Shown piece after piece: positions 9,120 to 62,846 of a DNA stretch of 64,000 nt. Numbering within the stretch: the first letter of the stretch is position 1; every line of letters starts with the position of its first letter. Position numbers and translations under genes: made by a program. The notes beneath the pieces are model-generated. The model saw nothing but the letters and a program-made list of their open reading frames with translations, was not told where the DNA came from and did not search any database. The DNA comes from Phoronis australis (Eukaryota; Animalia; Phoronida): contig NMRA01000097.1 of NCBI GenBank assembly GCA_002633005.1, forward strand, positions 579,273 through 643,272, given 5' to 3'.

Positions 9120-9194
9120 TTTATCTACTTTTGCCAAGAGTTTCAGGTCAAGGCTGCGGTAATAACCAAATAACTTACCAAGGCGCCTGTGTTA
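9120..9194 (+). CDS. Exon: probable end of signal peptide + 2-Cys segment (xYLLLPRVSG/QGCGNNQITYQGACV)
   Basis: Acceptor ttttatttcag, donor A|gtaagt, 75 nt, phase 1-1. Hydrophobic run ends in VSG. In-frame alternative acceptor gives a start at 9147. Not in the ORF track. Confidence 0.65.
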
Positions 9195-12100
9195 GTAAGT
9201 ATACGGGTTTTCACACTCTGTTTTGAATAGTTTTGACCCCTCCTAGTTACTTAGCAGGCCTGCACGTGAATGACTGCACTTGATGTTTCGCTGCGGTTCT
9301 GCAAGGCATTGGCTTACACTCGCGGCAAAAGATTTTCGGTTGTGACACTGAAACAATGAATTCATCAATTGTATTTCATGATTCAACCCAGTCCAATTAT
9401 ATTGCTTCAGAGGCTGCGAATTTCCTAAGACAAAGGCAGGCTACTTGTATTAAGCTGTCTGAACGTGCTCGCGAAACACTGGTGAAATTTTGCGAGGTAT
9501 TCCGTGACCTTGGTCTCTATGCAAGAATACATGTACATGTAGGCTCATAAAGAGCATTTTTTTGTTTAAGCATCTACAACGTCTGACTGGTCTGTGAGCT
9601 GTGAGTCACCATCGTCAACCAAACAGTTATGTATGCCGCTTAAACTTGCGAAATCGGCGAATTCAATCATGTGTACTAATTAAACACTATTGCTGCTTTC
9701 GCAAAAGGGGTTGATCCGTCGTTTTGGTTGTGAAAAGGCCCATTAATTGTAACAGGAAATAGTTTTGTTGAATTTCCACGCCATGTGGTGTGTATAGCAG
9801 GACAATCTTGTCAAGAACCGTTTTTATGGGGTTGATGCGATGCTATATCATTTCAATAAGCTTTTCAGACTTTGTTCTGTGTGCTTGATCAAAGAATTAA
9901 CATTTCATGCATGTACATGTACATCCAATGTGCTATTGCACTCATAGTAAACAGAGTATCACCTGGGAGCATACAGTGAATAGTCACTGAAAGTGACCCT
10001 TTGATTTTGAAACTACGCGTTTAACACGCGCGCACCCCGGGTCTCGGGAGGGGGGCTCGAACGAGCCTCACAATTTGGCGAAGTGGGCAAAAAGGTCCTC
10101 CTCAAAGAAACGAAATATCCGGAAAAAGTAGAAAACGAGACAAAAGTCCACTAAAAAGGCAAAAACTACCAACATTTGGCGAATGCTCAGTTCATAGCAC
10201 TGAACGCGCCCAGTGAATCTTAGTAAACTGCCCACATTTTCAAAAATTCGAGCCCTCCTCCCCTCACCCCCCNNNNNNNNNCCCCCCCCCCCCACCCCAC
10301 CGCACTTTTAGGCTGTCGATGCGCGTATCTTTAAGTGTTTATGTGAAATCAACGTATATAATCTTCTTGGTTCTTTTGGTTTGTGCTTGTTTCTCACCAA
10401 CACGTTTCTGTATACAGCACATTTAAGCTGTAAAACATATCATTTTGACACCTGTGTCCAACTAGTGAGGCGTCCGGACAGACGCACGAATGTGTTTACA
10501 CCATGTTGCACTACGTGTACTGTAGCTCCAGTTTGCAAGGTAATGTTCTCAAAGCATTTGTGTGTGTGCATTCCAGACATAACAAACGTGCCATGCGTTG
10601 ATGGAGGCACGCTATGTAACCCTTTGGATCTCAAGTATGAATGTAACACCACCCAACAACAGTGCTTCTGCCCAGTGGGCTTCGAAGTAGACGTTTCTTC
10701 GAATCGATGTAAAAGTGGGTAGCAAAAACGCCTAAAATATCACTTTACGTAAGGCTGTTTGCCAACGTGTGCACTCTTAAACAGAGAAGTGCTTTTTGCT
10801 TCCGATACTAGTACACTTTTAAATGTAATAGTTGCCGATTTGGCTTCAGGCTGGCATCTTCCCTTTGGTGGGGAATGAATTAAGCTCAAACACGTGTTAT
10901 TTGAAGAATATTGGCCTTGATATTCCTATTTATTATTTTATTATTTCTATGTACCAGAAATAAGTCTCAAGTATGTGCAATTTGCATTGACCTTAGTGGT
11001 CCCTCACAGTAGTTAGTTTCTCAGAGCCACAGAACAGACAGGTCTCGGAGCTCAACAAGTTTTCCGTATCTTCATGACCGGGTTAATTTCAATCCTCTTT
11101 TCAGAGGGACCCACCGTCATCAGTCTTTACATCAACGGAAGGATTCATCATGGCCGACAGAAGCACTTGCGTGCCAACCAGACTGTTACCTTCAAATATG
11201 AAACCGATGAAGTATATCCCAATTCTAATTTCAACTGGAGCCATCCCTTTATGGAGACACCAGTGATTGGCGAGACAGCACTTGCTCATGGTCTGAAGAA
11301 AAAAAACCTAAAGTTGACAGTCACAATACGCAAAGAAGGCAAAGAGATCAATATGACCATATCCGCCATCAATGGGGTTGGTAATACTGCAGTAACCAGG
11401 CAGTTGACAATAATACCAACGTGTAAGCATTGCCTGTTGTCAACCATATGTCTGATCGAATTAATGTTGTGTAGTAAATAACATCCTCGTCGTTTTAAGT
11501 ATTGGTCAGTCATGCATGTATAAGCAAGCATTGGTGAACCACTTCACGCACGAAGTTTTCGATACGCGTTCAAACATATTTTAAGCAATGGCCCTGTGGC
11601 TGGTATCACCCTAGCTAAGATATAAGTTCCACTGACCAAAAAAACTGTGATGGAAAATTCCATTTCATCTATTTTTACATATGTAACCTACACTTACAAT
11701 TGAGACCAAATTACCAATTCTATGTTTAGTTACATGTATATGTAGACTTCCAAGATCCAAGACAACATACTTTTCACGCTGTTGCCATTGTGAAAGATAA
11801 CATAATATTGATATGGTGATGCACCCACATACTATATGCTCGTCTGTGCGTTTGACATCCGCTGCGGTACCTCACAAACCCCTGCAGTGTTTTCATAAAT
11901 GTTGGCACATGTGTTCTTCTGGTGCTTACAATGGACATCGACCTCAAAAGAGGCCCCCGAAAATCGAGCTTCGCGTATTTCGTCATTTTTCACAATTGGC
12001 GATTCCTACAGCTACTGGATATGCTAGTTGGATCACTATTTAGATACGCTATTACCAACTTTGTAAATCATTCAACAAAACTAGAGGAGAAATCACAGAC

Positions 12101-15100
12101 TTAGCGAAGCACTATATCAACTGTCGCGGTCGAACGCCTCTCCCTAAGGTAGTAAACAATCCCTCATGCTATTGACGCTTTGTTTCAGAGTAAAAAGATT
12201 CCATGACCATAAAAATTGTAATGCTCCATACCACTTCCTCATAATTTAACATGTCCCATAGTGGACATTCATTAGTTGCGTTAATGATATCCATTATCGG
12301 CCTATTAGTTGCTAAAGGGGAAATGAGGTTGTCAGTCCACTGTAAGGTATGTTCGACCAATTTCAGTCCCTAGCGACCATTTTTACTACTTACGTGGCTA
12401 TTTTTGCGCCTTTCTCTCTATCCACACACTGCTTGATGAATCATCATGACAGATCAACTGACAGATATGTTCCAAGACATAAAATGACGTCATTTATTTG
12501 GGACTGTTCTATGAAAGCGGCCATTAGAGGCAGCTTTAGATTTCTAAGTCAATGCTTAATAATTTCTGTGAGAACTCTTTATGAATTTTGCCTTCCTCTT
12601 AAAGCCTATCACAGTACCTGGGGAGCATCGCTCTGAGCCCACTAGTTCCATAAATTGTCAAATGTAATGGGGCATTGACTTGCTTTTGTGTACGTCACCT
12701 CCAGAATCACATTTCAATTCAAACAGCTGCGAATAACACCCGCGGTGTTCTATTCAGTTCCCTATTCAATACAACTGTTATCGACCTTTTGTTGTTTGTG
12801 CAGAATCTCGCGGTGACGCAATGTGGCGCGACAAGGCAGCTTCGCCTATCATTTGACGGCCCAGCATTTGCGTGATTAAACTCGTGTTTTCTTATTTTGC
12901 AAAGGCTTTGCTAGGAGTACCTGGTTAGCCCAATACATCTAATATAGCAAAAGTCCGTTCAAGTAAGGCTTTAAGAAAAGCACGACTGGTTTTGATATCT
13001 GTGTTGTGTGGCACAGTGACAAATTTTAAATACGTCTGCAATAATACCAACCATGATATTTGGTCGACCCTGGTGAAATTTGTCTCGTGTGCTTCTAAGA
13101 AGGAGAGCCCGCTCAAGTTGGTTTGATACTTCGATGGACCGGACTTATAACCGGGGAAGTATTCGGAAATTATCTGCACCCGTCTTTACCGTTTGAAATA
13201 CACCTGTGATGGGTGCATATAAACCTTCTTTGCTGCCCTTGTTGTACATGTATACACGTAACTGCACATGTAAGGGCTGACGTGCATAAAACTTCAAAAG
13301 TTATCCGCAGGATAAGTTTGATTGTTGCATGACGTCAGGTGCATTGTTCAACAATAACAACGTGACCCGTGATTAATCGACGTACAGTAATTGTTGCTAT
13401 ACGGCGTATAACTTCTATGCAACTGGCCCCAGATGTCCTTCGAGTTCTTTAAAACGTTGTACAGAGATAGGAAACCCGGCACTATGTTCAGGTACTTTGC
13501 GACAATGGGGGTTTTCATAAGAATGTTTCGTTTCTGATTTTGTAACGACCATTTGTTTAAACAGAATAATCGCCTGATATGAGTCTCTGACAGTGTCGGA
13601 TAACGATTAATCAGGCACCCACGTTATACGAAATCCGGGGACCATGGTTGCCGAAATGTTTGATTTACTGTACGCTATCCAGTAACCATAATTTTGATCC
13701 TCCAACGTTTTGAATTTACCATACGGAATCCTTCACTTGCAACTTTGGCGATATAAACCTTGGTCCGTTTCCATTGTACATTCCAGGCTTTAAAAGGACT
13801 AAGTCCTGTGTGTGAACACAAATGTGCAGTGAAGTTCGTTAACTTGGTGCTTAATGCAGCATTCTCTACCACCGGGTGATCCTTATTATGCACCATCAGT
13901 GGTTTAATTTTTTCTGCTTTTATGTTATTAAGTATTTGTCTTGTGCCTTTGTAAACATAGACGGACCGACAACTCTGACGATCACTGATGAGCGAAATAT
14001 ATCTTTGGAGGCAACAAAAACGTACTACGTACTGGAAAACCGTCGGTGGACTTTCTATTGTCAAAGCGACGCCTACTATAATAACGCCAGCTGCAAGATA
14101 GGGTTTGGCCTTGCCGGATCGCAATTAAATCAAACAATTGGAAACGCTAGTACATTTGAAGAGCAACGCTTACACGAGGATGGTCTACAATGTGTTACAA
14201 GGCTGGAATTTGACGTTGACAAAGACGTGAATGGAAAGAATGTAACCTGTGAAGTCTTCAACAGAAATCTAGAAAACAGCACGCTATGGAAGTCGTTTAT
14301 GTTGCGAACATACGGTAAGCACGGGAGTGTAGCAGGTCGTCCGTTCCAATGTCATAAGAAACTCGCGAAAATGCAGCATCACAGAAGACGTCGGCGAGAC
14401 ATCGCCGTCTTTTTCAACCGAAGCAAGTACAGTTGCAGTGCACTCAGACAGTAATCAGGCTAAATTGCGTTTTCTCATGTTACTGAGTAATGCCCGCCAT
14501 CAACCGTAACGATGGCCGTCATAGCTATTATAATGCTGTATTCCTCTAGCCCTCACTCGTACTGACAATATGTTTCACTTGCAATCAATTGCCGTGTTTC
14601 GGAATTGCGAGCATTTTTTCTGATTATGTCTGGCTTGTACTGCGGCTGCTTGTACAAGATTCTTGTGTCTATAGAACTCGGCCCGGGTGCCCGCCTCGTA
14701 GACTTGTGATGGCACATGGTCACTATTCGAGATATCGCCATTATTCACAAGCAAGACACATGATCGCGCTAGATCTACATGTACTCGCGAGGTACCAGTT
14801 TATTCCGTTCCATCCGCTATCTTTTGGTCACATCACGTCCCTGTCGGGAGCAGAAATCTTTTCGGATTTTTTTCATCAGGTCACGTATGTGACCAAAAAA
14901 GATGGTGGACTGAACTGGATAAACCGCTTGGAACTAAACCTAATTAGGCGTTTCGTAGAAGCGATAAACTCGCGTAAAGACCACGAAAGATCTCATCATA
15001 CATAAACGTTACAATTTATCTTCAAGGCATAAGACTACACGCATAATCAGTAAACGTCATGTGTGGAAAACGTTACGTGGCCATAGAACAACGTCTTTTA

Positions 15101-18100
15101 TCTTTATAACTCCTTTCTTTTTTGTCATCTCTTTTATTAACATTCGTGCAGGCGTCACGTCATTCCGCTGGACACATGTTTCCGGTTACCTGATTGACCT
15201 GCTTTCACCTGTATGCTATTTCGGCGACCATAATAGGCCAGCTCATTTACCAATTGGTAACTTTGACCCAGTTATCTTGTCACTTTTTTGTTTCTCTTTA
15301 TGTTTCGTGTATTGCACCATTCTTCACTATCACAAGGAATTACTTATTTTCACCTACTTTGAGGCTGCTTTTGTGTCTGGAAATAGAGATTGGGACACAC
15401 GTACTGTATTTACAAGTCCGGACAAATGGTGAACGTAAATGAATATCTTTTAACGCTTCGTTCTTCTTTAGGGATAATGCGTCATGCAGCTGTCACTGGT
15501 CTGTGGTGCTGTTATCGAATCACCGGATATGGACCATTTTGGCGCGCGAGTTGACTTTTAGAAAAGCGGGTATCTGTACCTCGTCTAGGGTCAGTGTTTG
15601 ATGGTCTGCCCCATAGCCTCGTCTGAAAGTGGCTCCCCGAGAACCCCCGGCCGTGTTATTGATGCCGGTGTTCTGCAATTGATGTACATTCCTTTTTGTT
15701 AAATTTTTATGAGAAGGCATGATCACGTGACCCAACTAATGATAGATTGGTTAAAAGCCATAAGTCGAATTTAGTAGGTTTTTCTTCTCTTAGAAAACAT
15801 GACTTCTTCCACTGAATGATAAGAAAGTGGGACGGTATCACGTAACTTACGAATTTAAAAACACTGGGGCCCAACTGAAGTTCTAATCTTTTTATTCGAA
15901 ATGAAACTCGAAATCATGTTCGGCATTTTTTACTCTACTTTTGTGCGAACTCAAGATAAGTGTCTATTATTCTACGCTCGAGTACATAGTGACTTATGTG
16001 GATACTTTTTAGTTCTAGTTTGCAGTTGACAAACCCAACATTAAGGCTAAAAGTTCGATTTTGAACTTAAATTTTCAAGTTTTTATTCGAGTTTGTAGCA
16101 CGAATATCAGGGTCTTCAAGTGCAAACTTGGATTAGAAACTCATATGCGTAAACTATGATGTATTCTAGCACAGTCTAATAACCACTTGTCTCGAGTTTG
16201 CATAAAGTAGCAGAGAAATAGCCAAAAATAATCTCGAGTTCGTTTTGAGTACAAAGATTAGATTCTGAGCCCAAGAAGACTGCCAATATATGTATCTGCT
16301 GTTTTAGTCATTGCTTCTCAGGAATACGTCTAGGACATAGGTTAGGTTAGGTTTACTGAAACGATGATCAAATATTCAAATTTCAGCGTTTGTCGTTTGT
16401 GTGTGCTTCTGCACACTTCACACAATTTGTTTATGAAGAATTAATTCCTGTTTAATACACAAAAGAAACCGGGATTACTTTAAGTTGGGTCTGTCGCAAA
16501 GCTTGGCCCTCAAAACATCAGACTTCATTTATTCCATTAAATGACATAGTCGGTGAGATTTTACAAAGTAACTAAGATTCGACTATGGCAGGACTGTAAT
16601 TTGTACTAAAACATACGCAAGTCATTTTTTTCGACTTTTTAACGTCGACTTCCATTTTCCTTATCTATTATCATTAACAGACATGTATGTAATTTATGTC
16701 CAGGGCTCCACGGGTTCCATTCTCCGACTTAACGTTGGGGTTTACGAATCGTAGCCGGGATCGGTGTGCTCAGCCATGAAATCTTTTCCAACCCCTGTAG
16801 TCGTCAGTGAGGTTTACTGTGTCTACAACTGATGGTCGTTTTGCAGATAGCAGTGAGTGTACATGTAGATGCCAGAGGAACAACAATACACGATGTATGC
16901 ATTAAAAACGTGGCTTTATCCAATCATGATTTCGCTCAGATCTTCCCAACATGACCCTGACGGTGGTCAAGTCGAACATCACGTTTGTGTCGAGTCGAAC
17001 TTCATTGAAAAAATCACTCGTCAATTTCCGGTCGTACGTGGCTCTATGTGAGGTCATAACCTCTGTACCGGAAGTCAACATAACCATGACGTCGACGGGC
17101 TCTGAACAACAAGGTAGTCAATCACAGCAACCCGACATCAACGACGCCAGCATGACAAGGCACTTCCTCAACCTTACTTTTAAAGCGACGGGTGTCCATT
17201 CGTTCGGTTGCATTGTGTCTCATGAAAATATAGAAGATTTTTATAAGGAAGCACATATAAACGCTACAGCCAAATATTGTAAGTATCTCTTTCACTTGAG
17301 AACTCCCATTCCGTGACTAACCGGCGATGTTCTGTTGAGAAAATTTAAGTCAGAAGTAATCAGACAAAAAACTGCTTCCACGCCATGACGGTAACAACAC
17401 GTCATTAGTCGTGACCAATCCTGAACAACTATTCTAATTCACCCTGAAGTCGGCCATGATGGGTCAAAGGTAAAAGAGTGGATTAATTTATTATACAATT
17501 GCGGACATTTTTGCAGTTGGGCCATCTAAATTAACGATAACCACGGACACTGATGACGTTGTCAACGACGGCGGTCACCTCAACGTAANCTTAATTTGAT
17601 TAATTTCTCGTCCTCTATTCCGGAAGTGACGTTTTGGGATGCAAGTGTTTCTCGCCAATTTCTTTTCGTTATAGTCTGACTGTGAGGGCTGTCGAGTCAC
17701 TCATTGTTCTACCTCGGTTGTGATAAGTTCGGTCGTCGTTTGCTTTTGTTTACAAGTCAGTCAACATGCCACGCTTTTGCTGCGTGCCGGGATGTACTCA
17801 TTATCGTCTCACAGGCGCTTTGGGTACCTTGCGTCGCTTTCCGAAGGATGACACACTTCGCCGTACTTGGCTTGCTCGTTCATGTGAAGGACGCAGCGCT
17901 ACCTGTCCACGCAATGTTCAAAGCAGTGGAGGGTTACCGAGTGTGTGGCAAGCATTTTCTGCCTTCAGATTACGACCGAGATATGTACGCTGAATTGATG
18001 AGGTTCCCTGCGAAACAACGCCTGAAGAAGGGTACCATACCGTCGCTGTTGATTCAAGGCAGTGCCCCGTCGCCAACCCCGAGAAGTGCGTTTTTGAAGG

Positions 18101-45100: not shown

Positions 45101-48100
45101 TTTTTACCTCCGCTGTGACGGTTCCCCGCAGTGGCACGCCGCATTTGTTCGACCAATCGGCTAAATTTTCACATCAGAAAAACAACAAACTTCTTTGTCA
45201 TATTTATTGTCTGATACTTTGAACATCACTCATACTTATGTAACAGGCATTTTAACCAATTCTTTCGTGCTAAAATTGAATTCTAGATGAACGATTGAAC
45301 GACGTTACTTTAGCAAAGCTTCGACACTCGGTGACGTTTGCATGAGAAAAGAATTGGTTACTGAGAGTAAGATTGCAAGTGATGACGAAAGAGTCTTTCA
45401 GCTCCTAAAGAAAAAAATCTCTTCAACTGGAAGTGGACGCTGACATTAAGAACGAACATGCTTGGGGAAGGAATACTGGCGGTGATGTGACAGTGAGATA
45501 ACGGATCTCGGTTCCCGTACTTGGCTAAGTGTTGCGTGTACTCGCTAAAGCCCTAAACAGCATCACGGAAAGCAGTTAGCCTGTATCGAAGATGCAAGTC
45601 TGTAATAAATGTTCTCTCTCTTGTAGCCCGGGTGGTCGATTTATCTTTAACTGTCGTTAATGAAGCCGGGAAGGTGTTCTATGAAAGGTCCAAATCCTCG
45701 AGTTTATCTAAGCCGTTGACCACCGATGAAGCCTACACCGCCATTTGCAGATTCAGAACCGACATTCCACTGGCACAACTTCGCTGGGTACTTGCTAATG
45801 GGTGGAAAGGCGTCAACATTGACCACCAAAATCAAACTGTTCTGTTTGATGGTGGCACTCGCGTTTACGCATACGAAAAGAGGTTCAACGTGAAAGCTGC
45901 AGATAAACTGAATGACCTTGAGCTCAAGTGCGAAGCGCAACACGACATTGTGATGGAAATCCAGTCGGAAGTAACATTCACCCAAGAAGTTATATGTACG
46001 TGAGCATTTAGTAATTTCGTGTTGCCGTATCTCCCATGCATGGGCGGCACACCACTGAAAAAATGGGAGGCTATTGCTCCCCCAGACGCCATGGTGCGCC
46101 GCCCATGTCTCTAATCTCTTGCATTTTTGCGCTGAAGCCTGTTTCATGACAGTGGCTTTAAAACATTTGAGACAAAAACTATGTATTCTTAAAAGCTCCC
46201 AGTCTACTTTGCTGAATATGGGCTTAGCCAAACATGAAGTATGAGTGCATCATAGTCTGGATTTAATTTATAGAAATTAGCTCAGTAACTTGCTGTGTGT
46301 GAGTGACTTGGCACTTTCGCGTAGGTGAGATTCGATTATTTTTCAGAAATACCTATGTGGAGCGTAAGACAAAATTTCTGTCTTTAGTTTTAATTCACTT
46401 TTCATCAGCATACGCCAGGCTTCGAGTCTAACCTATTTACCCGAAATCGAACTGGAACGCATCGTTGACACTTCCCGCTCTCGTTTAATGACAACTCAAG
46501 ACGAGTGTCTATAATTCTTTGCTCGTGTACATGTACCTTACGGTTTACGTGGGTGATATTACAATCCAAGTTTGCACTTGATGACTTCAGCGTTTAAGTC
46601 ACGAGTTCGAACCCGAACTCGAAATTACGAAGTTCTTCTCGGCCGAAATCTCGAGTTTTTATTCAAAGATGTAGATGGAATTTAAGAGTCGCCTAGTGTG
46701 AACTAGGGCTAAAAAAATCCTCTGAGGAACCCAATAAGGGCACGCGCATAGATTATTAAACCACTGAATTTGTATTGAAGCAGGACGGAAAATGTCAAAA
46801 AGTAGAGAGATTACACACGGCAGTATGTCCCAGCTCAAACTTAAACCAACCAAAACATATCTCTGGCAGTTCATTTGATAACAGTACATTGTAAAAGTTC
46901 CTTTTCGCCCCGTTTAAACGGCTAAAAATGAAAATCTAGTTAGGTACGTCACTCTCACAAAATGTGCAACGTAAATCTTGCCCTGATAGGATTCCGCTTC
47001 CACACGGTGTCGAAAAAGACTCTGTTATTATACGTGGGCGCTATTTCCTCACAGCGGCTCATTAGCTAGATTGTTTCAGTTTAAGCGTTAGCCATTACTA
47101 CCGATTAAGCTGACTTGGTAAGGAGTTTGTCAACTAGGCAACACGTGGCCCATCGGTTGGCCATTTAGGGGCTACAATACTTCCTTTCGCTTTCTGTACG
47201 CATTTCGTTACATGTATTTTGAACGGGCGGTAGGCCAAATCCAGGGGGGGTGATTTGTCTTGGGAAGAACTGGCGGATCGTTCTTGGCAGGTCGATCATT
47301 GCACGCGTTGGTCTTGTTCTTAAGTATCAAAGAAGTGTCAGTTCTTCTCTTGCCCAAAACTCAGTCCTCGTATGAGCAAGGACACGTTTAGACATAGTTA
47401 ACAGTGGTGAAGGGTCTAAACCGAACTTCTGTTTCATTTACGGTTGTCGTACACCTTTGCAGTTGGGCCTCGGGCTTTAGAATTTACGGCCTCGGGAGGT
47501 GCTCTAGATGCGACAAACGAAATGTTCGGCATCAACTACGGCACCACTTACACGCTCATCTGCAGCACCGATAACGTCAACAACGAAGCAGATATCGTGT
47601 ACACACTGACTCCAGCTCCACAAAACAGCATTCAGATTGTCAATAGTGCCGTAGACGATAAATTCGGGGGCAAGAACTTTAAAGCGGCTATGACATTTAA
47701 CGCCACTGTGGAGATGCATCACGTGAATGTCTCGTGCAAGTCCCACAACGTCGACCAATCGAAATACCAACAGTTGCGACGTTTAGATCTGTACCTGCTG
47801 GAAGGTGAAGTATTCGTTTACATCTTTTGTCAGCTTGAAAATAGTGTTCCGAAAATTGACGACTTTAAAACTTGAAATTCTTTAAATAATTCCTGACAAA
47901 AGATACGGAAAGTTTCCTTACATTTTGTCTACGCTACTGTGATAAACATGTGTCACTTTAAGGTAGAATTTCCTCCTTCAATTTAAACTGTGTATGTCAA
48001 GACACTAGTACTTTTTTATGCTTTTCACGGATGTACTCGAACTCATGTAAAATGCATGACGGTTGCATCAACCAACCAATCGTCTTCCCTGCCAATCTTG

Positions 48101-50526
48101 CTTCTCTGTAGGCATGAGCTACACAAATTGGAAGATGACGACGTGATACCTCAGGGAGGGGGGACTCTCCGTGGTTGGTGTAACATGTAACGCAAACTCA
48201 GATATATGTAGGTCTAAACTAATGACAATAAAACGACATCCTGAAAACTGTGAGATCAAAATGGGCTAGGCCTACAGGTGGCGCCCGTTTCTTTAGACTT
48301 CTTGATACGACATAATAATCCATGCGCGCACCCAGTATAAATTATGGGGGGCTCGAATTTTTGACAATGTGAACCTTTTACTAACAAAATACAAGGGAAT
48401 AAAAAACGGGTACCACGTTCAGAGTTATGAGTTGTGCATTCGTTCCTTTTTAGTAGACTTTTGTCTCGCTTTCTTGGACTTTTTTTGTTTAGCTGAGGCG
48501 GACCTTTTTGCCCACTTCGCCAAATGGGGGATCCTTCGAGCCCCCGAGCCCCCCCGGGTGCTCGCATGTAATAAGGTTATTAACTTACGATATTGCCTTA
48601 GATCTATTCCATGAAGACTGAAATGGATCTCAGCTAAGACGGATTTTGGTCTAAATGACAAAAATATTTTAGAAAGTNAATTCCCCCAGATTACATTTGA
48701 CAGTTCGTCAGTGCAAGTTTCTGACGGGCAAAATCCTAGGATCCGTCCCTGCTCATGATGCCAAACGAGGTAAGATAAAAGATACTTTCTTTCCCATCCG
48801 GCATCTGACAAAAGCACCGGACACACAGTGCAGCGCTAACCAACCTGCTCTGCATGCTTACTTTTTTCCTCGTAAACGATATTTCCCTCGTAATTGGGAC
48901 TCAACAGTGTTTTATGAACCACGAGCATTCCTTTTCGGTTTAATAATAACCCGACTTTGTATCTTAAAAATGTCGCATTAAAGCCACTTTTCAAGAAATG
49001 AAACAGCCGTGGATTCGCTGTTTGACGTTATACGATATGATAAAAGTTTCCTCACACACACATTTTTGTTCTGCAAATGTCGCAATTTCCAGAAATGGGT
49101 AAAAATTTTTACTCAATGACCGATGGTAGATTGTCCAAATTGGATGTGTATGATAATACATATGATTTTCGGCGATTCGCTTTTTGAAAACAAAGGTCAT
49201 GAGAGGAGCTTTACAGTGTTTAGTTTAAGGAGTAACTTCGTGTTTTGACATCTTTCTTGGTTTCCTTCTATAAACCCAAAAAGCCGTCTCAATGTAAATT
49301 GATTGGATAACACTGTTTTAGTCACTTTTTTCAATGTCTGCTGGTACATTGAATAGAAGAAACGACCAAAAACTCATAAACAGTGTTCGCGTCATTGTCA
49401 GTTTTCTCCAGTATTAGTGATAACATGGAATTCCGTTGTCTAAGTACTGTTTATTTGAATCACAGGCGCTTGGGTTTATCGCAAATGACGTCACTCATTA
49501 ATATACAACTGTGTAAGATGACATAAAGGTTGGACACTTAAACTTTGCCAAGCCGAGGCTCCCAACTTCAACCGTCCAAAATCCAAATAAAATCTGCGTG
49601 CACCTCCCTTAGCCTGGTATTGCAGAAACATTCAAAGCCTTATCTTTCCTAGATCCCATTAACTGTCTTCGTGAGTGGTGAAGTGGCGATGGAATTTCCA
49701 AAACAATCTCAAAACTCTGAATTCAAGGACCTGAAATAGTAAACGGATTTCAGTTGTGCTTCAACTTGTACGCCTGTCGTAGGTGAAACTTCGAGTTTGA
49801 GTAAGCAACCTATATTTCAAATTCAATAATTCTAATCCAAAACTTAACTATTGAGAATGTTAAAGTTAGTATTTTAATGATTATTTGTAACTTTATTCCA
49901 CTGACGGCTCATTTTAGCCCTTAACTTAGAAATTTGTTACATAAACTGGTGTATCTTGTTTCTCATCTTGACATAACGCATGTTTTTGATTGAAGCACAA
50001 CACACTCGTCCAGGAAACGCAGTCCGTGTAAGTATTACAATGCGCGTGGCCGACGAGTTAACTCAATGGTTTTGGCCAAAAGTAAAACCTTCATAAGAAA
50101 TCACAGTACACAAAACCTTCGCATATCAATACAGTATCAGGATAATTTATATTTGACACAAATATGTGAGTAATTACATTTATTTGGCAATAAAGTGCTC
50201 TCTGCTTCTCATGATCAAGTAGTCGAGGGATTGACGATGAAAGCCGCGCGAAATTAGACTTTCGGATTTAACTCGGGAGCGTCCGTCAAAAACCCGGATG
50301 TGCGAAGACCGTCTGCCATGACATCACGGAATCAGGTGCTTGAATTTGTGATTTTGGCATTCTTTTGGCATTGTTGTCGCCAAATGACCACTCGAAGGCA
50401 ATTTGACGAGATCAAATGAAAGAAGGTATTCTAAGAGTTGTTCGATGCTAGTTTCGTGGAGTTCCAAGCACATTTGAGTAGAAAATTTTTAGGAAACAGA
50501 TTTCGAGTGTCCAACCTTTATGTTTT

Positions 50527-50580
<54 letters not shown>

Positions 50581-53500
50581 AGTGACGTCAGTTGCGATAA
50601 ACCCAAGCGCCTGTGATTTGAATATGCATGGAACGCTAACATGTAACTCGTCAAAACATTGTTTACACTATTCCTAACGAAAGTATCATCACTCAACGTT
50701 TAGTACAAAGTAATTCACTTTCCCCTTTGATGAAATTTAGAGAAAAGAAATCACAAAATTCACGATTTTTGAAAGACGCGCGAAGGAAAACTGTGGTTAC
50801 CACATAGTTTCTAATTTCCCTCTCACTTAGGATGAATGCGCACACAATCAGTTGCTTGAAGTTGGTTGAGGTCAAAGGTGACATTTTCCATAAGTGAAAT
50901 GTGCTACGTCTAATATCCTGCCATACGAAATAAGGAGACGTGTTTGGGTTGGGGGAGAAAAATCGACGAATTAACGAGCAGTTGATAGGTCGTATTTTTG
51001 AAATTTGAAACTACAAGAAAATGCTTTGATATCAACAGAAATCAAAAATCTTTACAAACAAACTATAAAATAGCTGGTGAGCAAATTGACTTTTGTTTCA
51101 GTGGCAGAGAAACACTTTCAATATTTGTTTGGTCATTTCGTCACAGGGGAATTACTCTGTACTAGACTTTGCGAGATGGTTCTTTCATAAAGAATTGTTT
51201 AACATATATTTTTAACGAGTGTTTGCGTTCCATGCCTCTTTTAAATATTTCTGAACTATAAGTAGTACTTGATTGCTCGACCTAAAATAATTTCTTTTAC
51301 AATTGTTCGTCTTTACATCAAAACAAATTTCTATAGTGTGTTCTTCTAACTGTGTTGCTCGGGGAGCTATTGCACAGATGGGATCCGCACTCAAGGAGCA
51401 TTTTTGGACAATGCGAGAATTGTAGAAAGAAGTTATCCAACAACGAATGCCGTATCGTATTTCACGAACTCTGCACCAGCGTTACAGCTAACTACATAAA
51501 CTATCTAGGTCAAGGTTACAATGTATGTGGGTTGGCGTGTTTCAGTTCCCTAGAACTTTTCAAACGGATGCGCCTAAGTTCCTCCAAAGTGCGGCAACGG
51601 AACAGAATAGATCGGGATATCGAAATTCTAGGTAATAACTTACTGCCTTGAACTTTGTGATGAAGCTCCTCCTATTTACTTCATTCCAGCTCCTGGTTTG
51701 ACTCGTTACACACTTTTTCACTAATCAAATATTTACCATTTCAAGGCAAACCACCAGAGATTGAAATAAGCCTTCAAAAGGAGAGCAACCGCGACCCACA
51801 CATATCTCTGAAACAGAGACTGTGGAAGCCCTTGGACTATGGGACCGTGTACATTATAATCTGCAGCACAGTTGTAAATTTACCTGACGTACGCCTTCGA
51901 TGGAGCACGACTTTTGGGGAGACAGCAACCAAAAACTTGGCTTCGGATGATACGTATTCCACGACCTTCACCTTTACAGCCACCGAAAAGCAAAACCAGC
52001 AGACGATTGTGTGCACTGCCTCTCATGACACTGTTCGCGAGCTCAGTGCAGCACGAAACGTCACTCTAGATGTAACCTGTAAGCAAATTAGCTTTGCATT
52101 CGACTCTTTACCTAGTACAGGCTTAGCGCTGTATACATTTGCTTGAATCTACGTTCTCTGTTGGCGTGGCTATGCGGCGATTGCCCACTTATCCTCAAAA
52201 AGATTATAACTGGGGAAATACCTGTACAGTGTAGTTCTAAATCGAAAGACTAGGTTTTGACGACATATGCCAACTAGATGTTGCCATGCATGTCTCTTAG
52301 AAATATACAAACCAGAACGATAAATTTCTTTTGATGTTTTCTGCTTTACTTTTATGTAAATTTAATTAAAAGGATACCAAACCCGGTTTTGGCCTGGTAA
52401 CTGATACTGAAAACGACTTTCCTGCAAGTTCTCCCAAACAAAGCAATGCCCTGTAACCCTCGGATATTCTCAAAAGTTTGGAGGAAAATGTTAAAACTCC
52501 TTTCAGAGTCTGCTAAATGGGCAAGCGCAACCTACGTTTCATAGCGAATTACACGGTAACTGTGGGAAAAGACCACCCACCAATGTCCAATCCGTGACAT
52601 AAAAAGTATGATTTTTAGTTGATTCATGAATTTAACATGGGAGATTGGCGCCTGTGATGCAGTGCCTGGTGAAAGAAAGAGGATTAATTGAAATCATCAA
52701 AACAGGCTTTAGTGTTCTTTTAATTCTCGCGGTTTGTGCGTTTAAGTCCACTAAGGTTTAAGCAGGTGAATGCCTAATCCCAGTTCGCACATTACGGCAC
52801 TTAGATTCAAGTTGAACTCCAGAGTTCATAGTACATGGCAGTAAGTCTAATTTCTGCAGTCGAAACTCGTCTTGAATTCTAACCAATTTATGGTACACCT
52901 CCAGTAATCTTAAAACTATGTACTCGAATCATAGAACATGATTGTTAAATTTCGGCACCTGAGTTTAGAGATTAGACCATTTGCACAGATTTTGAATTCA
53001 AAATCCAATTGGTGTCTTCAGATTTTATTCGCCAAGCGACAAAAAATCACCCCTTGACAGCGACATTGTCGCAAACAACAGAATAGTACATTCAAATGTA
53101 GCTGCATCCAGACCTTTACATTTCACGTGCCATACGTATGGTTCCTTTCAAGTTGGTCCTACTCAGATCACTTTTTCCGTGGACGGTGGGGACGCAAAGT
53201 TTGAGCGGAGAGCCGCAGGAAGTGGTGTGTCGCTATTACTTTTAACCAACATAATTTACACGATACATTGCATAACGGACAGCTTTAACGATCAAGTCGA
53301 CTTGGATTTCTTCGGTGATCTCTCTAAAGTCCGTCCCACGCGGCAGTCCAATGAGACGGCGAACGGCGGGCGGACGTTGAAAATTTCGACTTCGTTTGAC
53401 GCCGACACAGTGCACGGTTTTCGATTCTACTGCTCGTCTGCAAATCAAAGAAATCGCCAGTTTCATGCTCGGACAACGACATATACTGCTCACGTGTCAA

Positions 53501-56014
53501 GTAAGCTTTTCGATCTGGAGCCTGTGAAGTTTCCTGTTGCAGTGTTCCAAGACTGATTAGAAAACTGGACACGTAGGCAACATTTGAAGACATTAGGCAA
53601 GATTGGGTGGGATTGTTGTGTGGTGTGCTATGAATTCCGCCATATTCTTTGAACGTCGGTTTCATTACTTTAGCCAATGAGAAGCCATCAATAATGTTAA
53701 ACAACATTCCAAGGTGCTACCTTTGGTGGCACTGTGAAAGAGTGTAACGTTTTCTATGACACTCGCCCTGTCGCCAGTTTTGTTGTGAGACTGGTTACAA
53801 AGCAAAAAGTCACCTTAAGAATGTCGTTTGGTTAAAAACAAGTCCTCCAGATTATATAAGATATCCAATATCCCATTCAAGGGTTCTCTTAGCTGAGACC
53901 GTGGGCTGCACAGCTCTACAATATTGATTTGTTTAAAATGCGTAACTTATCAATTTTCAGTGAATATTATCCTTTGTTGACATCAAGTAGGTTTCAATCA
54001 AAAGTTGTTCATTTTGCTCTAGAATTTTGAGAATAAAAGCTTTTCGACAGGGATGATAAAATAACAGACGAATTTCAGCGAAACTTTTGAATAGATGTAC
54101 ATGTATTTGACGGTAATGCGCTTATACCATTTGACTTTCTGGTGTGTTGCAGCATTCCTAGGGATCGTTTGAAGATTATAGCCGCTACAGAGTTTGGGTA
54201 GATACCAAGAAGTGTTTCGTTGTCGTTAATTGTGTAATATTTTGTATTTGTCAAACCAAGTGATTTCTTTAGGAAGAGAAGTATAATATACCTTCTCGTC
54301 ATCTTTGGACGCCTGACGTCTTTTCTCTTTGAAACTTGGTTTACTTCTTTGTTGTAGATGTTGGAAATCGTTTATTTTTTAAACTTTTTTATTTGGGTAT
54401 TGATTTTAAATAGTGAGGTACCAAGCCTTTTTGCCAATTCTTACTATTACAGTTTCCCCTTTTGGTCCAAATCGATGTTGTCTTCTTGTACTTGACATAA
54501 AATTGACAAGCATCTCTACAAATTTACCATTTGCGGTGCACTACAGACGTGTATTAATGCCTAGCGTAGCTTTATTTGGTGGGCCCCAAAGACAGCGAGC
54601 CCCACCGGTCCTCCTTGGGGGTCACGAATACATTTTTCTGCTTTTTGTGAATCAGTTGATATACAACCACGACCACCCCCACCAAAACCACTGCTAATAC
54701 ACCCACCACCACAACCCGCACCACTACCACCACCACCCCCATCAAAACCACTGCTACTACTACCACCCNCTCTAGTTATTGCAGATTTACCGAATAGCCC
54801 CATTGCAAGGGGCCCGTGTTTGCCAAGGGTCGTAAGTTTTTTCGTAGCTAAGGTCGTTAATTTTGTTAAGTTCAGCACAATTCAGTGTGGCTAAGCAGCG
54901 GTAAAAAACCTTAATAATTCTGGGGCCATTTTCTCAAGGGTGGTAACTTCGTAAGTCTTATTTTACCCACGAAAGTCTTTAATTTGATTTCAGATGCACC
55001 CATTTCGTTGTGGCTAGCGAATGCTGCCAAAACGTCTGAGTATTACTAATCCTCAACATAACGCCATTTGCAATGTTCGTCTCTTATAAAACGCAGTATC
55101 GAGTCTATAATAACATTGGTACTGTTGTGATAGCTAGGGCGTGACTTTCGACCTTCGGTGAACGGGCTCAGGTACTAGAGTCATACATATCTCCTAGAAT
55201 ATCCAATGGCACACAGTGGTTGACATTTTAGGGGGTGTCTGGCATATTGTCTGTCATGGGGCATTTAGTGATCAGTAGCACGTATTAAATCACATGGAAT
55301 TGTTTTTGTGGGACCTCGAATGTATGAGCTACTTCATTTTGGGGGCGGGTCCTGTTTTGGTTTCTGCCCGACCCATTCCAGAGTGCAATTTTTCTATCAC
55401 GGGTCATTCGGTGTTCAGTGTGGTACTTGGCCAGTACCTCGAATATCTAATCTTGCTCGTTTTGGCCCCCATGTAAGGTCCGCAAAGGACATACCCAGAG
55501 TGCAGACAGCGGCAAACGTCCATTTCTGTATCTACTGAGGTGAACTCTAAGTGCTCCTATGGCCAGATGTCGGTACCTCGTTCATCTGTGCTAAGTGCTC
55601 TGGGCTGTCGGTCCATAACCAAGAGACATACCTTATGTGAAAATAAGCCCGGTTACATAATATTTTTAGGTAACAGTCTGACGCTTGCGTTTAACGCTGA
55701 CGGGATAGACCTCGACCCTGCTTTGAGCTTGCACACGGTTGTTTCCGGCGACAGAGTCGTCATTACGTGCTGGACAACCACACCGGCCAATCACGTGATT
55801 GTGAACGTGACACAGTCTATGCAAGGTTTGATCTCGGCCGTGAACCACACATGGATGGGATCTTACCCGTGGTACAACCACTCGAGAACTCTTACTTTCC
55901 ATGAGGTCACGCCAGCCCATGACCTAATGACTATTAATTGCACTGCCAGCCATCCTCAGTTTACGGCCGACAGAAGAACTGATCTAACTAAAATGCTTAT
56001 CATCCGGGTCAGAT
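9120..56014 (+). CDS. Spliced gene (20 exons found, incomplete at both ends) for a large secreted or cell-surface protein: signal-peptide end + Cys-rich EGF/EB-like region + 18 tandem Ig-like domains
   Basis: All 20 exons have AG/GT boundaries, are phase 1-1 and have lengths divisible by 3. They join into one stop-free frame of 6507 nt. Ig Cys pairs, (F/Y)GP linkers formed across junctions and many NxS/T sequons are present. Confidence 0.88.
10025..10327 (+). mobile_element. MITE family copy 1 (homologous to 48321-48569)
   Basis: Shares ttggcgaagtgggcaaaaaggtcc..cgagacaaaagtc..caaaaattcgagccc with the reverse complement of 48321-48569. Confidence 0.7.
10577..10714 (+). CDS. Exon: EGF/EB-like 6-Cys module
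   Basis: ttccag|AC..A|gtgggt, 138 nt; ITNVPCVDGGTLCNPLDLKYECNTTQQQCFCPVGFEVDVSSNRCK. Confidence 0.85.
11105..11422 (+). CDS. Exon Ig1 (A-like, lacks canonical Cys pair)
   Basis: tttcag|AG GGA CCC..T|gtaagc, 318 nt; GPTVISL..FKYETDEVYPNSNFNW..TISAINGVG. Confidence 0.8.
13961..14314 (+). CDS. Exon Ig2 (type A-like)
   Basis: catag|AC GGA CCG..G|gtaagc, 354 nt; GPTTL..FYCQSD..NVTCEVFN. Confidence 0.88.
15864..16274. mobile_element. Palindromic MITE-like element
   Basis: Left arm ttctaatctttt..aaactcga..ctacttttgtgcgaactcaagataagtg is the inverse of right arm cacttgtctcgagtttgcataaagtag..aaagattagatt. Confidence 0.7.
16940..17278 (+). CDS. Exon Ig3 (type B)
   Basis: ctcag|AT CTT..T|gtaagt, 339 nt; YVALCEVITSVPEV..FGCIVSHENIED. 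Confidence 0.88.
17584..18830 (+). mobile_element. Kolobok-like THAP transposon derivative with ~230-bp inverted arms
   Basis: ~17584-17815 is the inverse of ~18520-18740. Right terminus ..gccttcgcct|TTAA. Contains THAP and KFIV..LLELFRRCLVC..CVSGHSGKWDS motifs. Confidence 0.75.
17766..18530 (+). pseudogene. Frameshifted THAP-domain transposase N-terminus
   Basis: MPRFCCVPGC..RFPKDDTLRRTW (one frame), YRVCGKHF..RLKKGTIPSL (second frame), then a CxxC..CxxGH zinc-finger motif; no catalytic domain. Confidence 0.8.
18867..19202 (+). CDS. Exon Ig4 (type B)
   Basis: ttacag|TT TCA..T|gtaagt, 336 nt; YVLRCQIRSELPNV..FNCSVGHEIVEE. Confidence 0.88.
19631..19882 (-). pseudogene. Degenerate THAP-like domain relic
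   Basis: MPTKYCCCAVGCNSE..LKFFAVP resembles a THAP N-terminus; the C-terminal CxxH is lost. Confidence 0.5.
20191..20589 (+). CDS. Exon Ig5 (type A; missed by the ORF track)
   Basis: ttccag|TT GGG CCT..G|gtaagt, 399 nt open; GPKNLTL..VTCKTDSVE..FNADLTVHDQNITCEAWN. Confidence 0.88.
22111..22461 (+). CDS. Exon Ig6 (type B)
   Basis: tttcag|cag tandem (NAGNAG) acceptor, T|gtaagt, 351 nt; YIARCVIESEIPEV..FSCNCSHNIVHE. Confidence 0.87.
22747..22940 (-). mobile_element. Putative 3' LTR (194 bp)
   Basis: On the minus strand it starts TGTAATA just after the integrase stop and ends ACACAACA. It has an AATAGA polyA-like signal; the PPT is degenerate. Confidence 0.55.
23000..23342 (-). mobile_element. 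Ty3/Gypsy integrase C-terminal fragment
   Basis: PGMIIEQRGPVSFSVELPDKRIWRRHVDHI..TRSGRKSIQPDRL matches the Gypsy integrase tail pattern; truncated at the N at 23343. Confidence 0.8.
23400..23500. repeat. Inverted microsatellite (GTAT/GGAT)n..(CATC/CATA)n
   Basis: Directly visible, self-complementary. Confidence 0.9.
23538..24031. repeat. 26-28-bp minisatellite, ~19 copies (aacctcctaccctaaacaagtatgta)
   Basis: Directly visible tandem array. Confidence 0.95.
24691..25020 (+). CDS. Exon Ig7 (type A)
   Basis: ttgcag|TT GGG CCG..G|gtatgt, 330 nt; YRVTCEINDTFP..ASVDYHKGRIVCSADN. Confidence 0.88.
25975..26580. repeat. Diverged direct duplication, ~370-bp period
   Basis: ttcatcaat..agatat.caaaaatcgt..ctgcaactaa..tcgatttt.gtagatacataaaca.gtaaatc occurs at ~25978 and ~26343. 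Confidence 0.8.
26888..27050. repeat. Perfect 15-bp tandem repeat GGTAACCACTTTCAT, ~11 copies
   Basis: Directly visible, no mismatches. Confidence 0.97.
29300..31420 (+). mobile_element. 5'-truncated, decayed non-LTR retrotransposon (RT + RNase H + C-terminal zinc finger), Loa-like
   Basis: QYAYRAGFSTETALH, RGTPQGG, QAYADDI, YLGVTL, VGKTWGLSP, QRLACLCVT..TPTAAME, YTDGSK, SDNQAAI, HVGIDGNE, TGHC..CPNC..ETPQHLVEICP. Confidence 0.92.
31581..31919 (+). CDS. Exon Ig8 (type B)
   Basis: cttatag|TC ACT..T|gtaagt, 339 nt; YTAECSTHSELPNIKIRW..LACKVRHPRLED. Confidence 0.88.
32965..33094 (-). mobile_element. tRNA-derived SINE head (CORE-like)
   Basis: Minus strand: A-box-like gtggttttagtg, B box ggttcgagt, then CORE-like gacccttgggtcaggttgctagcacctcag. 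Confidence 0.55.
33434..35399. mobile_element. DNA transposon with perfect 16-bp TIR (CAGTGGCGGATCTACG), spanning the assembly gap; possibly hAT-like
   Basis: TIRs at 33434 and ending at 35399, flanked by direct AGCTA. Possible TTF-type zinc-finger relic on the minus strand at ~34030-34210. Confidence 0.8.
34420..35330. other. Assembly gap (911 N)
   Basis: Run of N. Confidence 1.
36026..36415 (+). CDS. Exon Ig9 (type A)
   Basis: atcag|TT GGA CCT..G|gtaagc (in-frame alternative donor after 36409), 390 nt; YNISCVTDS..ADVSVHHKFLKCCARN. Confidence 0.87.
37468..37800 (+). CDS. Exon Ig10 (type B)
   Basis: tttcag|CT GAA..T|gtgagt, 333 nt; YIGECSTLSVVPDVQVSW..LTCCVSHNVVKE. Confidence 0.88.
38282..38526 (+). 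mobile_element. MITE-like repeat; inverse copy at 62847-63064
   Basis: aactgacttagttaagacaaat..aaatttgtctcaa matches the reverse complement of ttgagacaaattt..ttgtcttagctaagtcagtt. Confidence 0.65.
38819..39160 (+). CDS. Exon Ig11 (type A)
   Basis: caatag|TT GGC CCT..G|gtaagt, 342 nt; VTCTTDSVNP..HGGENY..LVCEFSN. Confidence 0.88.
40007..40354 (+). CDS. Exon Ig12 (type B)
   Basis: tttcag|CT GAT..T|gtgagt, 348 nt; YQLQCDVKT..VAW..LSCSGSHSVVWE. Confidence 0.88.
40496..41906. mobile_element. TA-flanked non-autonomous DNA transposon (Tc1/mariner-like termini) with TCACG subterminal arrays
   Basis: TA|cagccactgaatttttagac ... gtctaataattcagtgactg|TA; the inverted symmetry extends into the flanking catgtacagta. 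Confidence 0.75.
42111..42488 (+). CDS. Exon Ig13 (type A)
   Basis: ttgtag|AT GGT CCC..T|gtacgg, 378 nt; YRVSCTTNEVN..NGGTVY..ADLSIHDQSLRCKSFN. Confidence 0.86.
45627..45995 (+). CDS. Exon Ig14 (type B)
   Basis: ttgtag|CC CGG..T|gtacgt, 369 nt; YTAICRFRTDIP..LRW..LKCEAQHDIVME. Confidence 0.87.
46039..46107. repeat. 69-bp mini inverted-repeat element; related copy at ~777-875
   Basis: catgggcggcacacca..tggtgcgccgcccatg. Confidence 0.6.
47463..47804 (+). CDS. Exon Ig15 (type A)
   Basis: ttgcag|TT GGG CCT..G|gtgaag, 342 nt; YTLICSTDNVN..FGGKNF..ATVEMHHVNVSCKSHN. Confidence 0.87.
48321..48569 (-). mobile_element. MITE family copy 2 with short TIR
   Basis: Ends catgcgcgcaccc ... gggtgctcgcatg; internal homology to 10025-10327. 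Confidence 0.75.
49455..50622. repeat. Inverted repeat pair (~45 bp) with TGACGTCA core, probably inner arms of a larger foldback element
   Basis: aatcacaggcgcttgggtttatcgcaaatgacgtcactca versus tgagtgacgtcagttgcgataaacccaagcgcctgtgatt; (TA)n tract at ~50529-50574. Confidence 0.75.
51746..52078 (+). CDS. Exon Ig16 (type B)
   Basis: ttcaag|GC AAA (in-frame alternative start 51758)..T|gtaagc, 333 nt; YIIICSTVVNLPDVRLRW..IVCTASHDTVRE. Confidence 0.85.
53153..53500 (+). CDS. Exon Ig17 (type A)
   Basis: ttcaag|TT GGT CCT..A|gtaagc, 348 nt; YTIHCITDSFN..NGGRTL..ADTVHGFRFYCSSAN. Confidence 0.87.
55670..56014 (+). CDS. Exon Ig18 (divergent type B)
   Basis: ttttag|GT AAC..T|gtaagc, 345 nt; VITCWTTTPA..INCTASHPQF. 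Confidence 0.86.
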
Positions 56015-56164
56015 GTAAGCCTTCTTTAGTCGGTTGATTACTCTTGCACTTAGAAATTTCTGATGCCTGTACGTTATTTAATGAATTCTTTCTGAAGCCA
56101 TGGAACGCAGTAATCAGCTCAAGTAAAATACCAAGAGCCTTATCCCTGAATTTAGTTTATGTAG

Positions 56165-62842: not shown

Positions 62843-62846
62843 GTAT

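What the first reader, a model, noticed from the sequence alone, without database searches (positions are those of the whole stretch)
9120..56014. Giant modular Ig protein built from a strictly alternating two-domain (B-A)n unit, one symmetric phase-1 exon per domain
Seen: 18 Ig exons of two subtypes. Type A is (F/Y)GP..CxT[DN]..GGxx[YF]..A[DT]xxxH..CxxxN and usually lacks the C-strand Trp. Type B is L..Y..C...S.[LI]P.V..W..C..sH.[IV]V.E. Order is A,A,B,B,A,B,A,B,A,B,A,B,A,B,A,B,A,B. Copies are highly diverged, yet every exon is open with intact splice sites amid decayed TEs. Established: phase-1 symmetric exons are typical of IgSF shuffling. Inference: ancient tandem amplification of a two-exon cassette gave a >2100-aa ectodomain with an N-terminal Cys/EGF-like cap. 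I do not recognise this architecture as hemicentin, nephrin, Dscam or siglec. It is a candidate lineage-specific adhesion, allorecognition or immune receptor family.
Basis: partly seen in the sequence, partly recalled or inferred. Interest (0 to 1): 0.85.

Follow-up and report, generated by a model that had tools for sequence, protein, structure and literature searches.

The report
Giant alternating two-type Ig protein
An expressed gene of a likely invertebrate animal carries 18 whole immunoglobulin-domain exons plus the start of a 19th, in two kinds that alternate, and likely encodes a long sugar-coated cell-surface stalk; alternating Ig arrays are a recurring design, but this one has no close relative in the databases searched.

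Summary
Twenty phase-1 exons (two Cys-rich, 18 Ig) join into a 2166-aa open frame. A and B types separate (tree 94/99; leave-one-out clear for 16 of 18). RNA reads show two of the joints in two of three raw-read runs. New here: a missed type-A exon starts at 17517 and is cut at an N, exactly at the B-B break. The unit is therefore A-B, repeated nine times after an atypical Cys-less first domain. Domains 17 and 18 are both expressed but no direct joint was listed, so further exons likely lie in an assembly gap. Both types model as CD80/nectin/nephrin-like C2 domains. No orthologue was found, but two-domain Ig arrays recur in acorn worm, sea star, mussel, frog and CEACAMs. No membrane anchor lies in the exons found; the C-terminus is unknown. 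Few exonic variants argue against allorecognition. Best reading: a lineage-specific, heavily glycosylated spacer rod carrying an N-terminal binding head. Real but ordinary in kind.

The parts
9120..9194 (+). cap exon 0: likely end of a signal peptide plus a two-Cys segment; an in-frame ATG at 9086 could instead be the start
10577..10714 (+). cap exon 1: six-Cys module, EB/EGF-like (lead only)
   Evidence: Atlas 0.92 to a cluster with 22% PF01683; Pfam only EGF_Tme5 at E 0.087
11105..11422 (+). d01: atypical Ig-like domain, starts GP like type A, no Cys, keeps a Trp
   Evidence: fold not modelled on its own
13961..14314 (+). d02, type A
   Evidence: C2-set_2 E 0.003
16940..17278 (+). d03, type B
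17517..17588 (+). start of a missed type-A exon (23 codons, phase-1 acceptor, GP start), cut at the N at 17589
   Evidence: best of 609 intronic AG-started peptides against the A profile, 9.7 bits over profile positions 1-23
17595..18735 (.). THAP-coding element with ~218-bp inverted repeats, directly right of the N
   Evidence: THAP E 1e-4; inverted repeat 86.7%
18867..19202 (+). d04, type B
20191..20589 (+). d05, type A (long)
22111..22461 (+). d06, type B
24691..25020 (+). d07, type A (short)
31581..31919 (+). d08, type B
   Evidence: C2-set_2 E 0.001
36026..36409 (+). d09, type A (long); donor could be 36415
37468..37800 (+). d10, type B; modelled
   Evidence: pLDDT 90.1; nectin-4 D2 Z 11.4, rmsd 2.1, 92 aligned
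38819..39160 (+). d11, type A (short)
40007..40354 (+). d12, type B
42111..42488 (+). d13, type A (long); donor unsure
45627..45995 (+). d14, type B
   Evidence: sense RNA depth in two runs
47463..47804 (+). d15, type A (short); modelled
   Evidence: pLDDT 87.8; SYG-2 D2 Z 13.8, rmsd 2.1, 104 aligned; joint to d16 in 20+16 reads
51746..52078 (+). d16, type B
   Evidence: C2-set_2 24.4 bits, above cut-off; joints on both sides
53153..53500 (+). d17, type A
   Evidence: joint from d16 in 7+9 reads; depth ~11
54769..54769 (.). single N, likely an assembly gap that may hide exons between d17 and d18
   Evidence: repeat reads run on left of 54770 unlike the window; no d17-d18 joint listed
55670..56014 (+). 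d18, divergent, weakly type B; ends in a phase-1 donor, so the gene likely goes on
   Evidence: depth 13-19

Best explanation
This is an expressed immunoglobulin-superfamily gene whose exons encode two alternating kinds of C2-like Ig domain, one per phase-1 exon, and it likely makes a long, heavily glycosylated cell-surface stalk that likely arose by repeated duplication of a two-exon A-B cassette. Shown: exon structure, two subtypes, alternation, two spliced joints, sense transcription of d14-d18 in two runs. Predicted: Ig C2-like fold of both types. Inferred: the protein enters the secretory path; the (A-B)n run works as a spacer of roughly 80-90 nm (about 4-4.5 nm a domain, recalled figure) that holds the Cys-rich cap and the Cys-less first domain away from the cell, where they bind a partner on another cell or in the matrix, as the first Ig domains of nephrin, Kirrel and nectin do; a membrane anchor lies downstream of the part seen. 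Phase-1 symmetry would let any whole number of exons be duplicated or lost in frame, and a fitted A-B interface would favour pairs. A later doubling of a four-domain block (A1-B-A2-B) is possible.
For: 2166-aa open frame from 20 exons, all phase 1-1. Joints 47804>51746 (20 and 16 reads) and 52078>53153 (7 and 9 reads), GT..AG, one orientation, 0 reads in run X3. A|B split 94/99 in the 16-domain tree; profiles A and B are homologous (hhalign 96.4%). Missed A exon at the only B-B break. Models pLDDT 87.8 and 90.1; best structural matches are second domains of SYG-2/Rst and of nectins; Atlas first hits are C2-set_2 clusters, 0.96. 55 N-glycosylation sequons against 28.2 expected, 0 of 5000 shuffles; 28 of them in d01-d06. 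Binding through first Ig domains in nephrin, Kirrel and nectin: PMC10084454, passages. Long Ig run as an extension in Siglec-1: PMC10243309, passage.
Against: No transmembrane segment in the joined frame (highest 19-residue hydropathy 1.48) and no joint from 56014 to any place up to 59400, so anchoring is not shown. Of 19 predicted joints, 15 were never laid, 2 were seen, 1 (d14-d15) was not among the 15 of 53 rows shown, and 1 (d17-d18) was not listed although about 8 reads a run were expected (chance of under 3 is 0.014 a run). One continuous gene is therefore inferred. The signal peptide is read from sequence alone. The A|B branch is not starred, and falls to 73/88 with d01 and d18; d18 moved to the A side in one tree. 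A shared fold shows no function.
Confidence: 0.55

Rival explanations
1. The protein is secreted and works as a filament or spacer in matrix, cuticle, mucus or tube, like hemicentin in role though not in descent.
For: No anchor in 2166 aa; dense sequons; Atlas neighbours of the cap include EB and Dumpy clusters; expression in two of three raw-read runs.
Against: Closest folds are all from membrane-bound adhesion proteins; d18 ends in a phase-1 donor and depth drops after it, so more exons likely follow.
Confidence: 0.2
2. The array is the ectodomain of a signalling receptor with a catalytic or seven-pass C-terminal part (tyrosine kinase, phosphatase or adhesion GPCR) outside the window.
For: The gene is open at its 3' end; VEGFR, PDGFR and KIT domains match at Z 10-12.6.
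Against: Those matches are general Ig folds; of 18 top hits scanned with Pfam none showed a kinase, phosphatase or 7TM domain.
Confidence: 0.1
3. The exons belong to two or more neighbouring paralogous genes, or to pieces joined by scaffolding, and not to one giant protein.
For: No d17-d18 joint; five single Ns and a 911-N gap in the span; 15 joints untested.
Against: No second cap, signal or terminal exon was noticed between the Ig exons; alternation and the every-fourth pattern of A domains run across the gaps; the joint across the N at 48678 is direct; depth is similar from d14 to d18.
Confidence: 0.1
4. It is a highly polymorphic allorecognition or immune receptor, like Hydractinia Alr1/Alr2, binding its own allele.
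For: Diverged Ig domains that Pfam barely sees, one exon each, and a Cys-less first domain also describe Alr proteins (PMC9546547, passages).
Against: Only 3 variant sites were listed in the 693 bases of d17 and d18, two silent and one Thr/Ser. Alr proteins have one to three Ig domains.
Confidence: 0.05

Closest known systems
Nephrin/SYG-2 and Kirrel/SYG-1/Rst
   Same: Type A matches their second domains best (SYG-2 D2 Z 13.8, Rst D2 Z 13.4; SYG-2 E 1.5e-6 by profile); many database hits are named nephrin-like.
   Different: Nephrins have nine Ig domains and one FNIII, Kirrels five, with invariant architecture (PMC10084454, passages); here at least 19, a Cys-rich cap, and A and B each group apart from nephrin domains.
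Nectins and Necl/SynCAM
   Same: Type B matches their second domains best (Z 10.8-11.4, tied with MAG D2).
   Different: Three Ig domains (D1-D3 in the entry titles) with a V-set head (recalled); reported only in chordates (PMC10084454, passage).
CEACAMs (A and B constant-like subtypes)
   Same: Ig constant-like domains of two subtypes in alternation, e.g. N-A1-B1-A2-B2 (PMC2110893, passages).
   Different: At most six such domains after a V-like N domain; vertebrate; none among the 30 hits whose names I looked up. A parallel design, not a relative.
Siglec-1/sialoadhesin
   Same: 17 Ig domains extending a binding head far from the cell (PMC10243309, PMC6698821, passages). Paired long/short domains are recalled from Crocker 1994, which was not held.
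   Different: Needs an N-terminal V-set domain with the sialic-acid arginine; d01 has no Cys and no V-set hit.
Uncharacterised periodic Ig arrays of other animals (Saccoglossus XP_006819856, Patiria XP_038064817, Cordylochernes UYV62106, Rana XP_040183201, Mytilus XP_052093019)
   Same: Periods of about 177-220 aa, i.e. two-domain units repeated in tandem.
   Different: Their successive units are mostly far more alike (95-97%, 26-47%, 49-78%, 68-96%, 30-80%) than here (21-29%); per-domain scores to the window profiles are weak. In the Saccoglossus protein Pfam finds C2-set_2 and I-set in 10 stretches each; here both types look C2-like.
Hydractinia Alr proteins
   Same: Diverged single-exon Ig domains, first domain without the usual cysteines (PMC9546547, passages).
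   Different: One to three Ig domains; highly polymorphic; V- and I-set related.

Membership tests
Immunoglobulin superfamily, CD80-like C2-set (PF08205) | Ig beta-sandwich with the B-F disulfide | tested here: met
   two models, pLDDT 87.8 and 90.1, Z 13.8 and 11.4; both Cys in 17 of 18 domains
Immunoglobulin superfamily, CD80-like C2-set (PF08205) | Pfam score above the family cut-off | tested here: inconclusive
   1 of 18 passes (d16), 6 more hit below it at E up to 0.087; Atlas agrees for d15
Nephrin/SYG-2 | nine Ig domains then one FNIII | tested here: not met
   at least 19 Ig exons; PMC10084454 passage for the definition
Nephrin/SYG-2 | domain-by-domain orthology | tested here: not met
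   A (95) and B (96) each group apart from the nephrin domains among 21 outside rows, quick tree; best domain scores at most 31 bits to the B profile
Nephrin/SYG-2 | transmembrane helix and PDZ-binding tail | not testable with these tools
   3' end not found; no genome held
Hemicentin | N-terminal VWA domain and a long run of I-set domains (recalled) | tested here: not met
   no I-set hit for any of 18 domains at E up to 1; no VWA-sized frame noticed upstream in the window
Siglec-1 | N-terminal V-set domain with the essential arginine | tested here: not met
   d01 has no Cys and no V-set hit
CEACAM | V-like N domain followed by up to six A/B domains | tested here: not met
   PMC2110893 passage
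Dscam | I-set and FNIII domains with arrays of mutually exclusive exons (recalled) | tested here: not met
   neighbouring exons are joined to each other; no I-set hit
Allorecognition receptors (Alr-like) | high allelic polymorphism in the ectodomain | tested here: inconclusive
Allorecognition receptors (Alr-like) | allele-specific homophilic binding | not testable with these tools
   needs a cell aggregation assay
EB module (PF01683) for the cap | Pfam EB match | tested here: inconclusive
   no EB hit at E up to 1; Atlas lead 0.92, only 3 of ten best hits share its family

The most novel reading that the evidence does not exclude
The gene founds an unrecognised lineage-specific family of giant surface receptors in which an EB-like cap and a disulfide-less Ig head sit on a rod of five four-domain super-repeats (A1-B-A2-B), 21 Ig domains in all, both types derived from the nephrin/nectin C2 domain: a titin-like hierarchy of repeats in an extracellular protein, with two exons (B, then short A) still hidden in the gap at 54769.
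Probability: 0.2. Interest if true: 0.55.

Novelty: new member of a known kind. Interest (0 to 1): 0.32.

Why it matters
It adds an orphan, expressed, very long IgSF ectodomain from a poorly sampled animal lineage, and is a clean old example of exon-pair duplication: units 21-29% identical that still keep strict order and phase. It makes two exact predictions about missing sequence (the rest of an A exon at 17589; exons between d17 and d18). It does not yet point to a new mechanism; its value would rise if the tail proved to be a signalling module, if paralogues form a family, or if the head is polymorphic.

Tried and rejected
No genome is held for this window, so paralogues and the 3' end could not be sought. 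Word-seeded protein searches found nothing: d16 against 194-2000 aa, the A alignment against 232-2000 aa, d10 against 60-193 aa; proteins over 2000 aa were outside these searches. The one whole-library search used the B profile only: 86 hits at E up to 0.001, 4 at 1e-10, all looked-at ones multi-domain repeats with weak single-domain scores; names were looked up for 30 of the 86. No RNA run was listed as a holder by index; the three raw-read runs came by species label. Six-frame profile scans and tblastn found no other whole Ig exon and no remainder of the broken A exon. No convincing transmembrane exon or upstream first exon was found by a simple scan. Four-domain periodicity: for A domains the every-fourth split ranks 1 of 35 without d17 and 4-7 of 56 with it, all 8 leave-one-out scores lean the predicted way though 4 narrowly, support 95 in a quick tree but 50/81 in a careful one; the grouping was noticed in the same data; B domains do not split so (28-46 of 70). 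Kept as a lead only. A two-copy fold of d01 gave no answer, score 0.00: neither support nor evidence against. Rfam: no match. Paper searches found no description of this architecture; 'EB module' with 'immunoglobulin' and 'domain architecture' gave 0 papers; the library lacks most subscription papers, and two key papers were not held. Earlier scan notes: none for this genome or for look-alike DNA; two loosely similar notes by words.

Full report
Observation. Stop-to-stop frames on the + strand show 18 Ig-like blocks and two Cys-rich blocks between 9120 and 56014. With splice sites chosen by frame and consensus, all 20 exons have lengths divisible by three, AG/GT ends in phase 1, and join into 2166 codons without a stop. 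No whole genome is held. CpG is not depleted (o/e 0.89), so the source is likely a non-vertebrate animal.

Two subtypes. Leave-one-out profiles assign 16 of 18 domains clearly; d01 has no cysteine and is unassigned in effect, d18 is weakly B. The tree of the 16 clear domains splits A from B at 94/99, just short of the tool's star; with d01 and d18 support is 73/88; d18 lies with B and with A. Mean identity is 19% within A, 20% within B and 14.5% between; even-lag pairs outscore odd-lag pairs in all but 5 of 20000 permutations for d04-d18. The two profiles are homologous (96.4%).

A missed exon. In that intron a phase-1 acceptor at 17517 opens 23 codons that start GP like every A exon and run into the N at 17589. 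Of 609 intronic AG-started open peptides it scores best against the A profile, over profile positions 1-23 (9.7 bits). The score is small; position, phase and motif carry the case. With this exon the order is d01, then (A-B) nine times. The unit is A-B.

Expression. Three raw-read RNA runs and one contig set were offered by species label. On 44501-64000, joints 47804>51746 (20 and 16 reads) and 52078>53153 (7 and 9) appear in X1 and X2 with GT..AG ends and in the orientation of a + strand RNA; X3 has no reads on these exons. That table showed 15 of 53 joints, so d14-d15 is undecided. On 52980-59400, d17 and d18 are covered 11-19 deep, but the untruncated joint table lists neither d17-d18 nor any joint from 56014. 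About 8 reads a run were expected; under 3 has a chance of 0.014 a run. Repeat reads continue left of 54770 unlike the window, which suggests that the N at 54769 is a gap. Hidden exons there are the simplest reading; a gene boundary is the rival. Three variant sites were listed in the 693 bases of d17 and d18, two silent and one Thr/Ser, with 5 rows not shown and alleles over 8% apart excluded.

Fold. Pfam gives C2-set_2 for 7 of 18 domains, one above cut-off, and no I-set or V-set. The Atlas puts d15 next to C2-set_2 clusters at 0.96. Models of d15 and d10 are confident (pLDDT 87.8, 90.1). d15 matches SYG-2 D2 (Z 13.8, rmsd 2.1, 104 aligned) and Rst D2 (13.4); d10 matches nectin second domains and MAG D2 (Z 10.8-11.4). 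Profile searches of the PDB agree: SYG-2 for A, Ig constant domains for B. The cap has six Cys; an EB/EGF-like reading is a lead. Sequons number 55 against 28.2 expected (0 of 5000 shuffles). There is no transmembrane stretch in the frame.

Relatives. Three word-seeded searches found none (none reaches beyond 2000 aa). The B profile against 1.84 billion representatives gave 86 hits, 4 at E under 1e-10, through summed weak matches: at most 31 bits a domain against 33-86 bits for core B domains left out of their own profile. The 30 looked up are nephrin-, sidestep-, hemicentin-like or uncharacterised proteins from molluscs, arthropods, hemichordates, a sea star, a ribbon worm, fish, frogs and others. 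Several are themselves two-domain arrays (periods 177-220 aa) with mostly younger units than the 21-29% seen here. In a quick tree with 21 outside domains A and B each form their own group; whether A and B share an ancestor apart from the outside rows is not resolved.

Higher-order pattern. Counting the missed exon, A domains at every fourth position (d02, d05, d09, d13, d17) group against d07, d11, d15: first of 35 splits without d17, 4th to 7th of 56 with it, 95 in a quick tree and 50/81 in a careful one. B domains do not follow. The grouping was noticed in the same data, so it is a lead. It predicts a B and a short A exon in the gap before d18.

How it likely works. Shown: structure, alternation, two joints, restricted expression among three runs. 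Predicted: fold. Inferred: secretion, a membrane anchor beyond the part seen, and a role as a glycosylated spacer of about 80-90 nm (length per domain recalled) that presents the cap and d01 to a partner. Nephrin, Kirrel and nectin bind through their first Ig domains (PMC10084454, passages; 10.1101/2023.10.27.564405, passages), and Siglec-1 uses 17 Ig domains to reach out from the cell (PMC10243309 and PMC6698821, passages). Symmetric phase-1 exons allow in-frame duplication; keeping A and B in pairs would follow from a fitted interface (inferred). Rivals are a secreted filament, a signalling receptor, several genes, and an allorecognition protein; their evidence is in the fields above.

Comparison and verdict. 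It is not a nephrin, hemicentin, siglec, CEACAM or Dscam by the features tested. Alternating Ig subtypes are known from CEACAMs (PMC2110893, passages) and, as recalled, sialoadhesin (Crocker 1994 not held); diverged single-exon Ig domains with a Cys-less head are known from Hydractinia Alr (PMC9546547, passages). PMC13358205 was read as passages for the Siglec definition; other papers were seen as search listings only. Ten searches of the held library found no description of this architecture, which is weak evidence of absence; no supplements were read. Two earlier scan notes describe one-domain-per-exon rods in other genomes (unchecked, not support). The finding is real, the gene is an orphan, the design is of a known kind. 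Interest 0.32.

Noticed in passing
window 59672-63658: A separate spliced + strand transcript (joints near 60240/60360 to 61428 and 61539 to 62755), strongest in run X3 where the Ig exons have no reads; reads differ from the window by many changes, so likely a multi-copy transposon-type gene. No Pfam hit for two of its frames.
   Followed up: partly
window 17595-18735: THAP-coding element with long inverted repeats next to the N that cuts the missed A exon; gap or insertion cannot be told apart, but no remainder of the exon follows the element.
   Followed up: partly
window 29216-31271: Decayed non-LTR retrotransposon with reverse transcriptase (E 5.5e-17) and RNase H (E 1.8e-6) in the intron between d07 and d08.
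   Followed up: partly
window 3094-4217: Decayed frames with a motif that recalls Penelope-type GIY-YIG endonucleases (recalled; no Pfam hit).
   Followed up: no
window 7553-8012, 23528-24032, 26884-27051, 6475-7398: Tandem arrays of 62, 26, 15 and 433 bases.
   Followed up: no
window 10273-10281, 17589, 23343, 34420-35330, 39722, 48678, 54769: Assembly Ns; the one at 48678 hides no exon (direct joint), those at 17589 and 54769 may.
   Followed up: partly
window 16940-22461: B domains d03, d04 and d06 group together and lack the C-strand Trp (best of 56 splits; 69/90); sequons are densest in d01-d06.
   Followed up: partly
P0001 (Mytilus VDI12744): A run of C2-set_2 domains followed by a ligand-gated ion-channel binding domain in one predicted protein; may be a gene-model fusion.
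   Followed up: no
window 1-64000: CpG observed/expected 0.89 at 40.7% G+C, which fits a non-vertebrate animal (inferred).
   Followed up: partly
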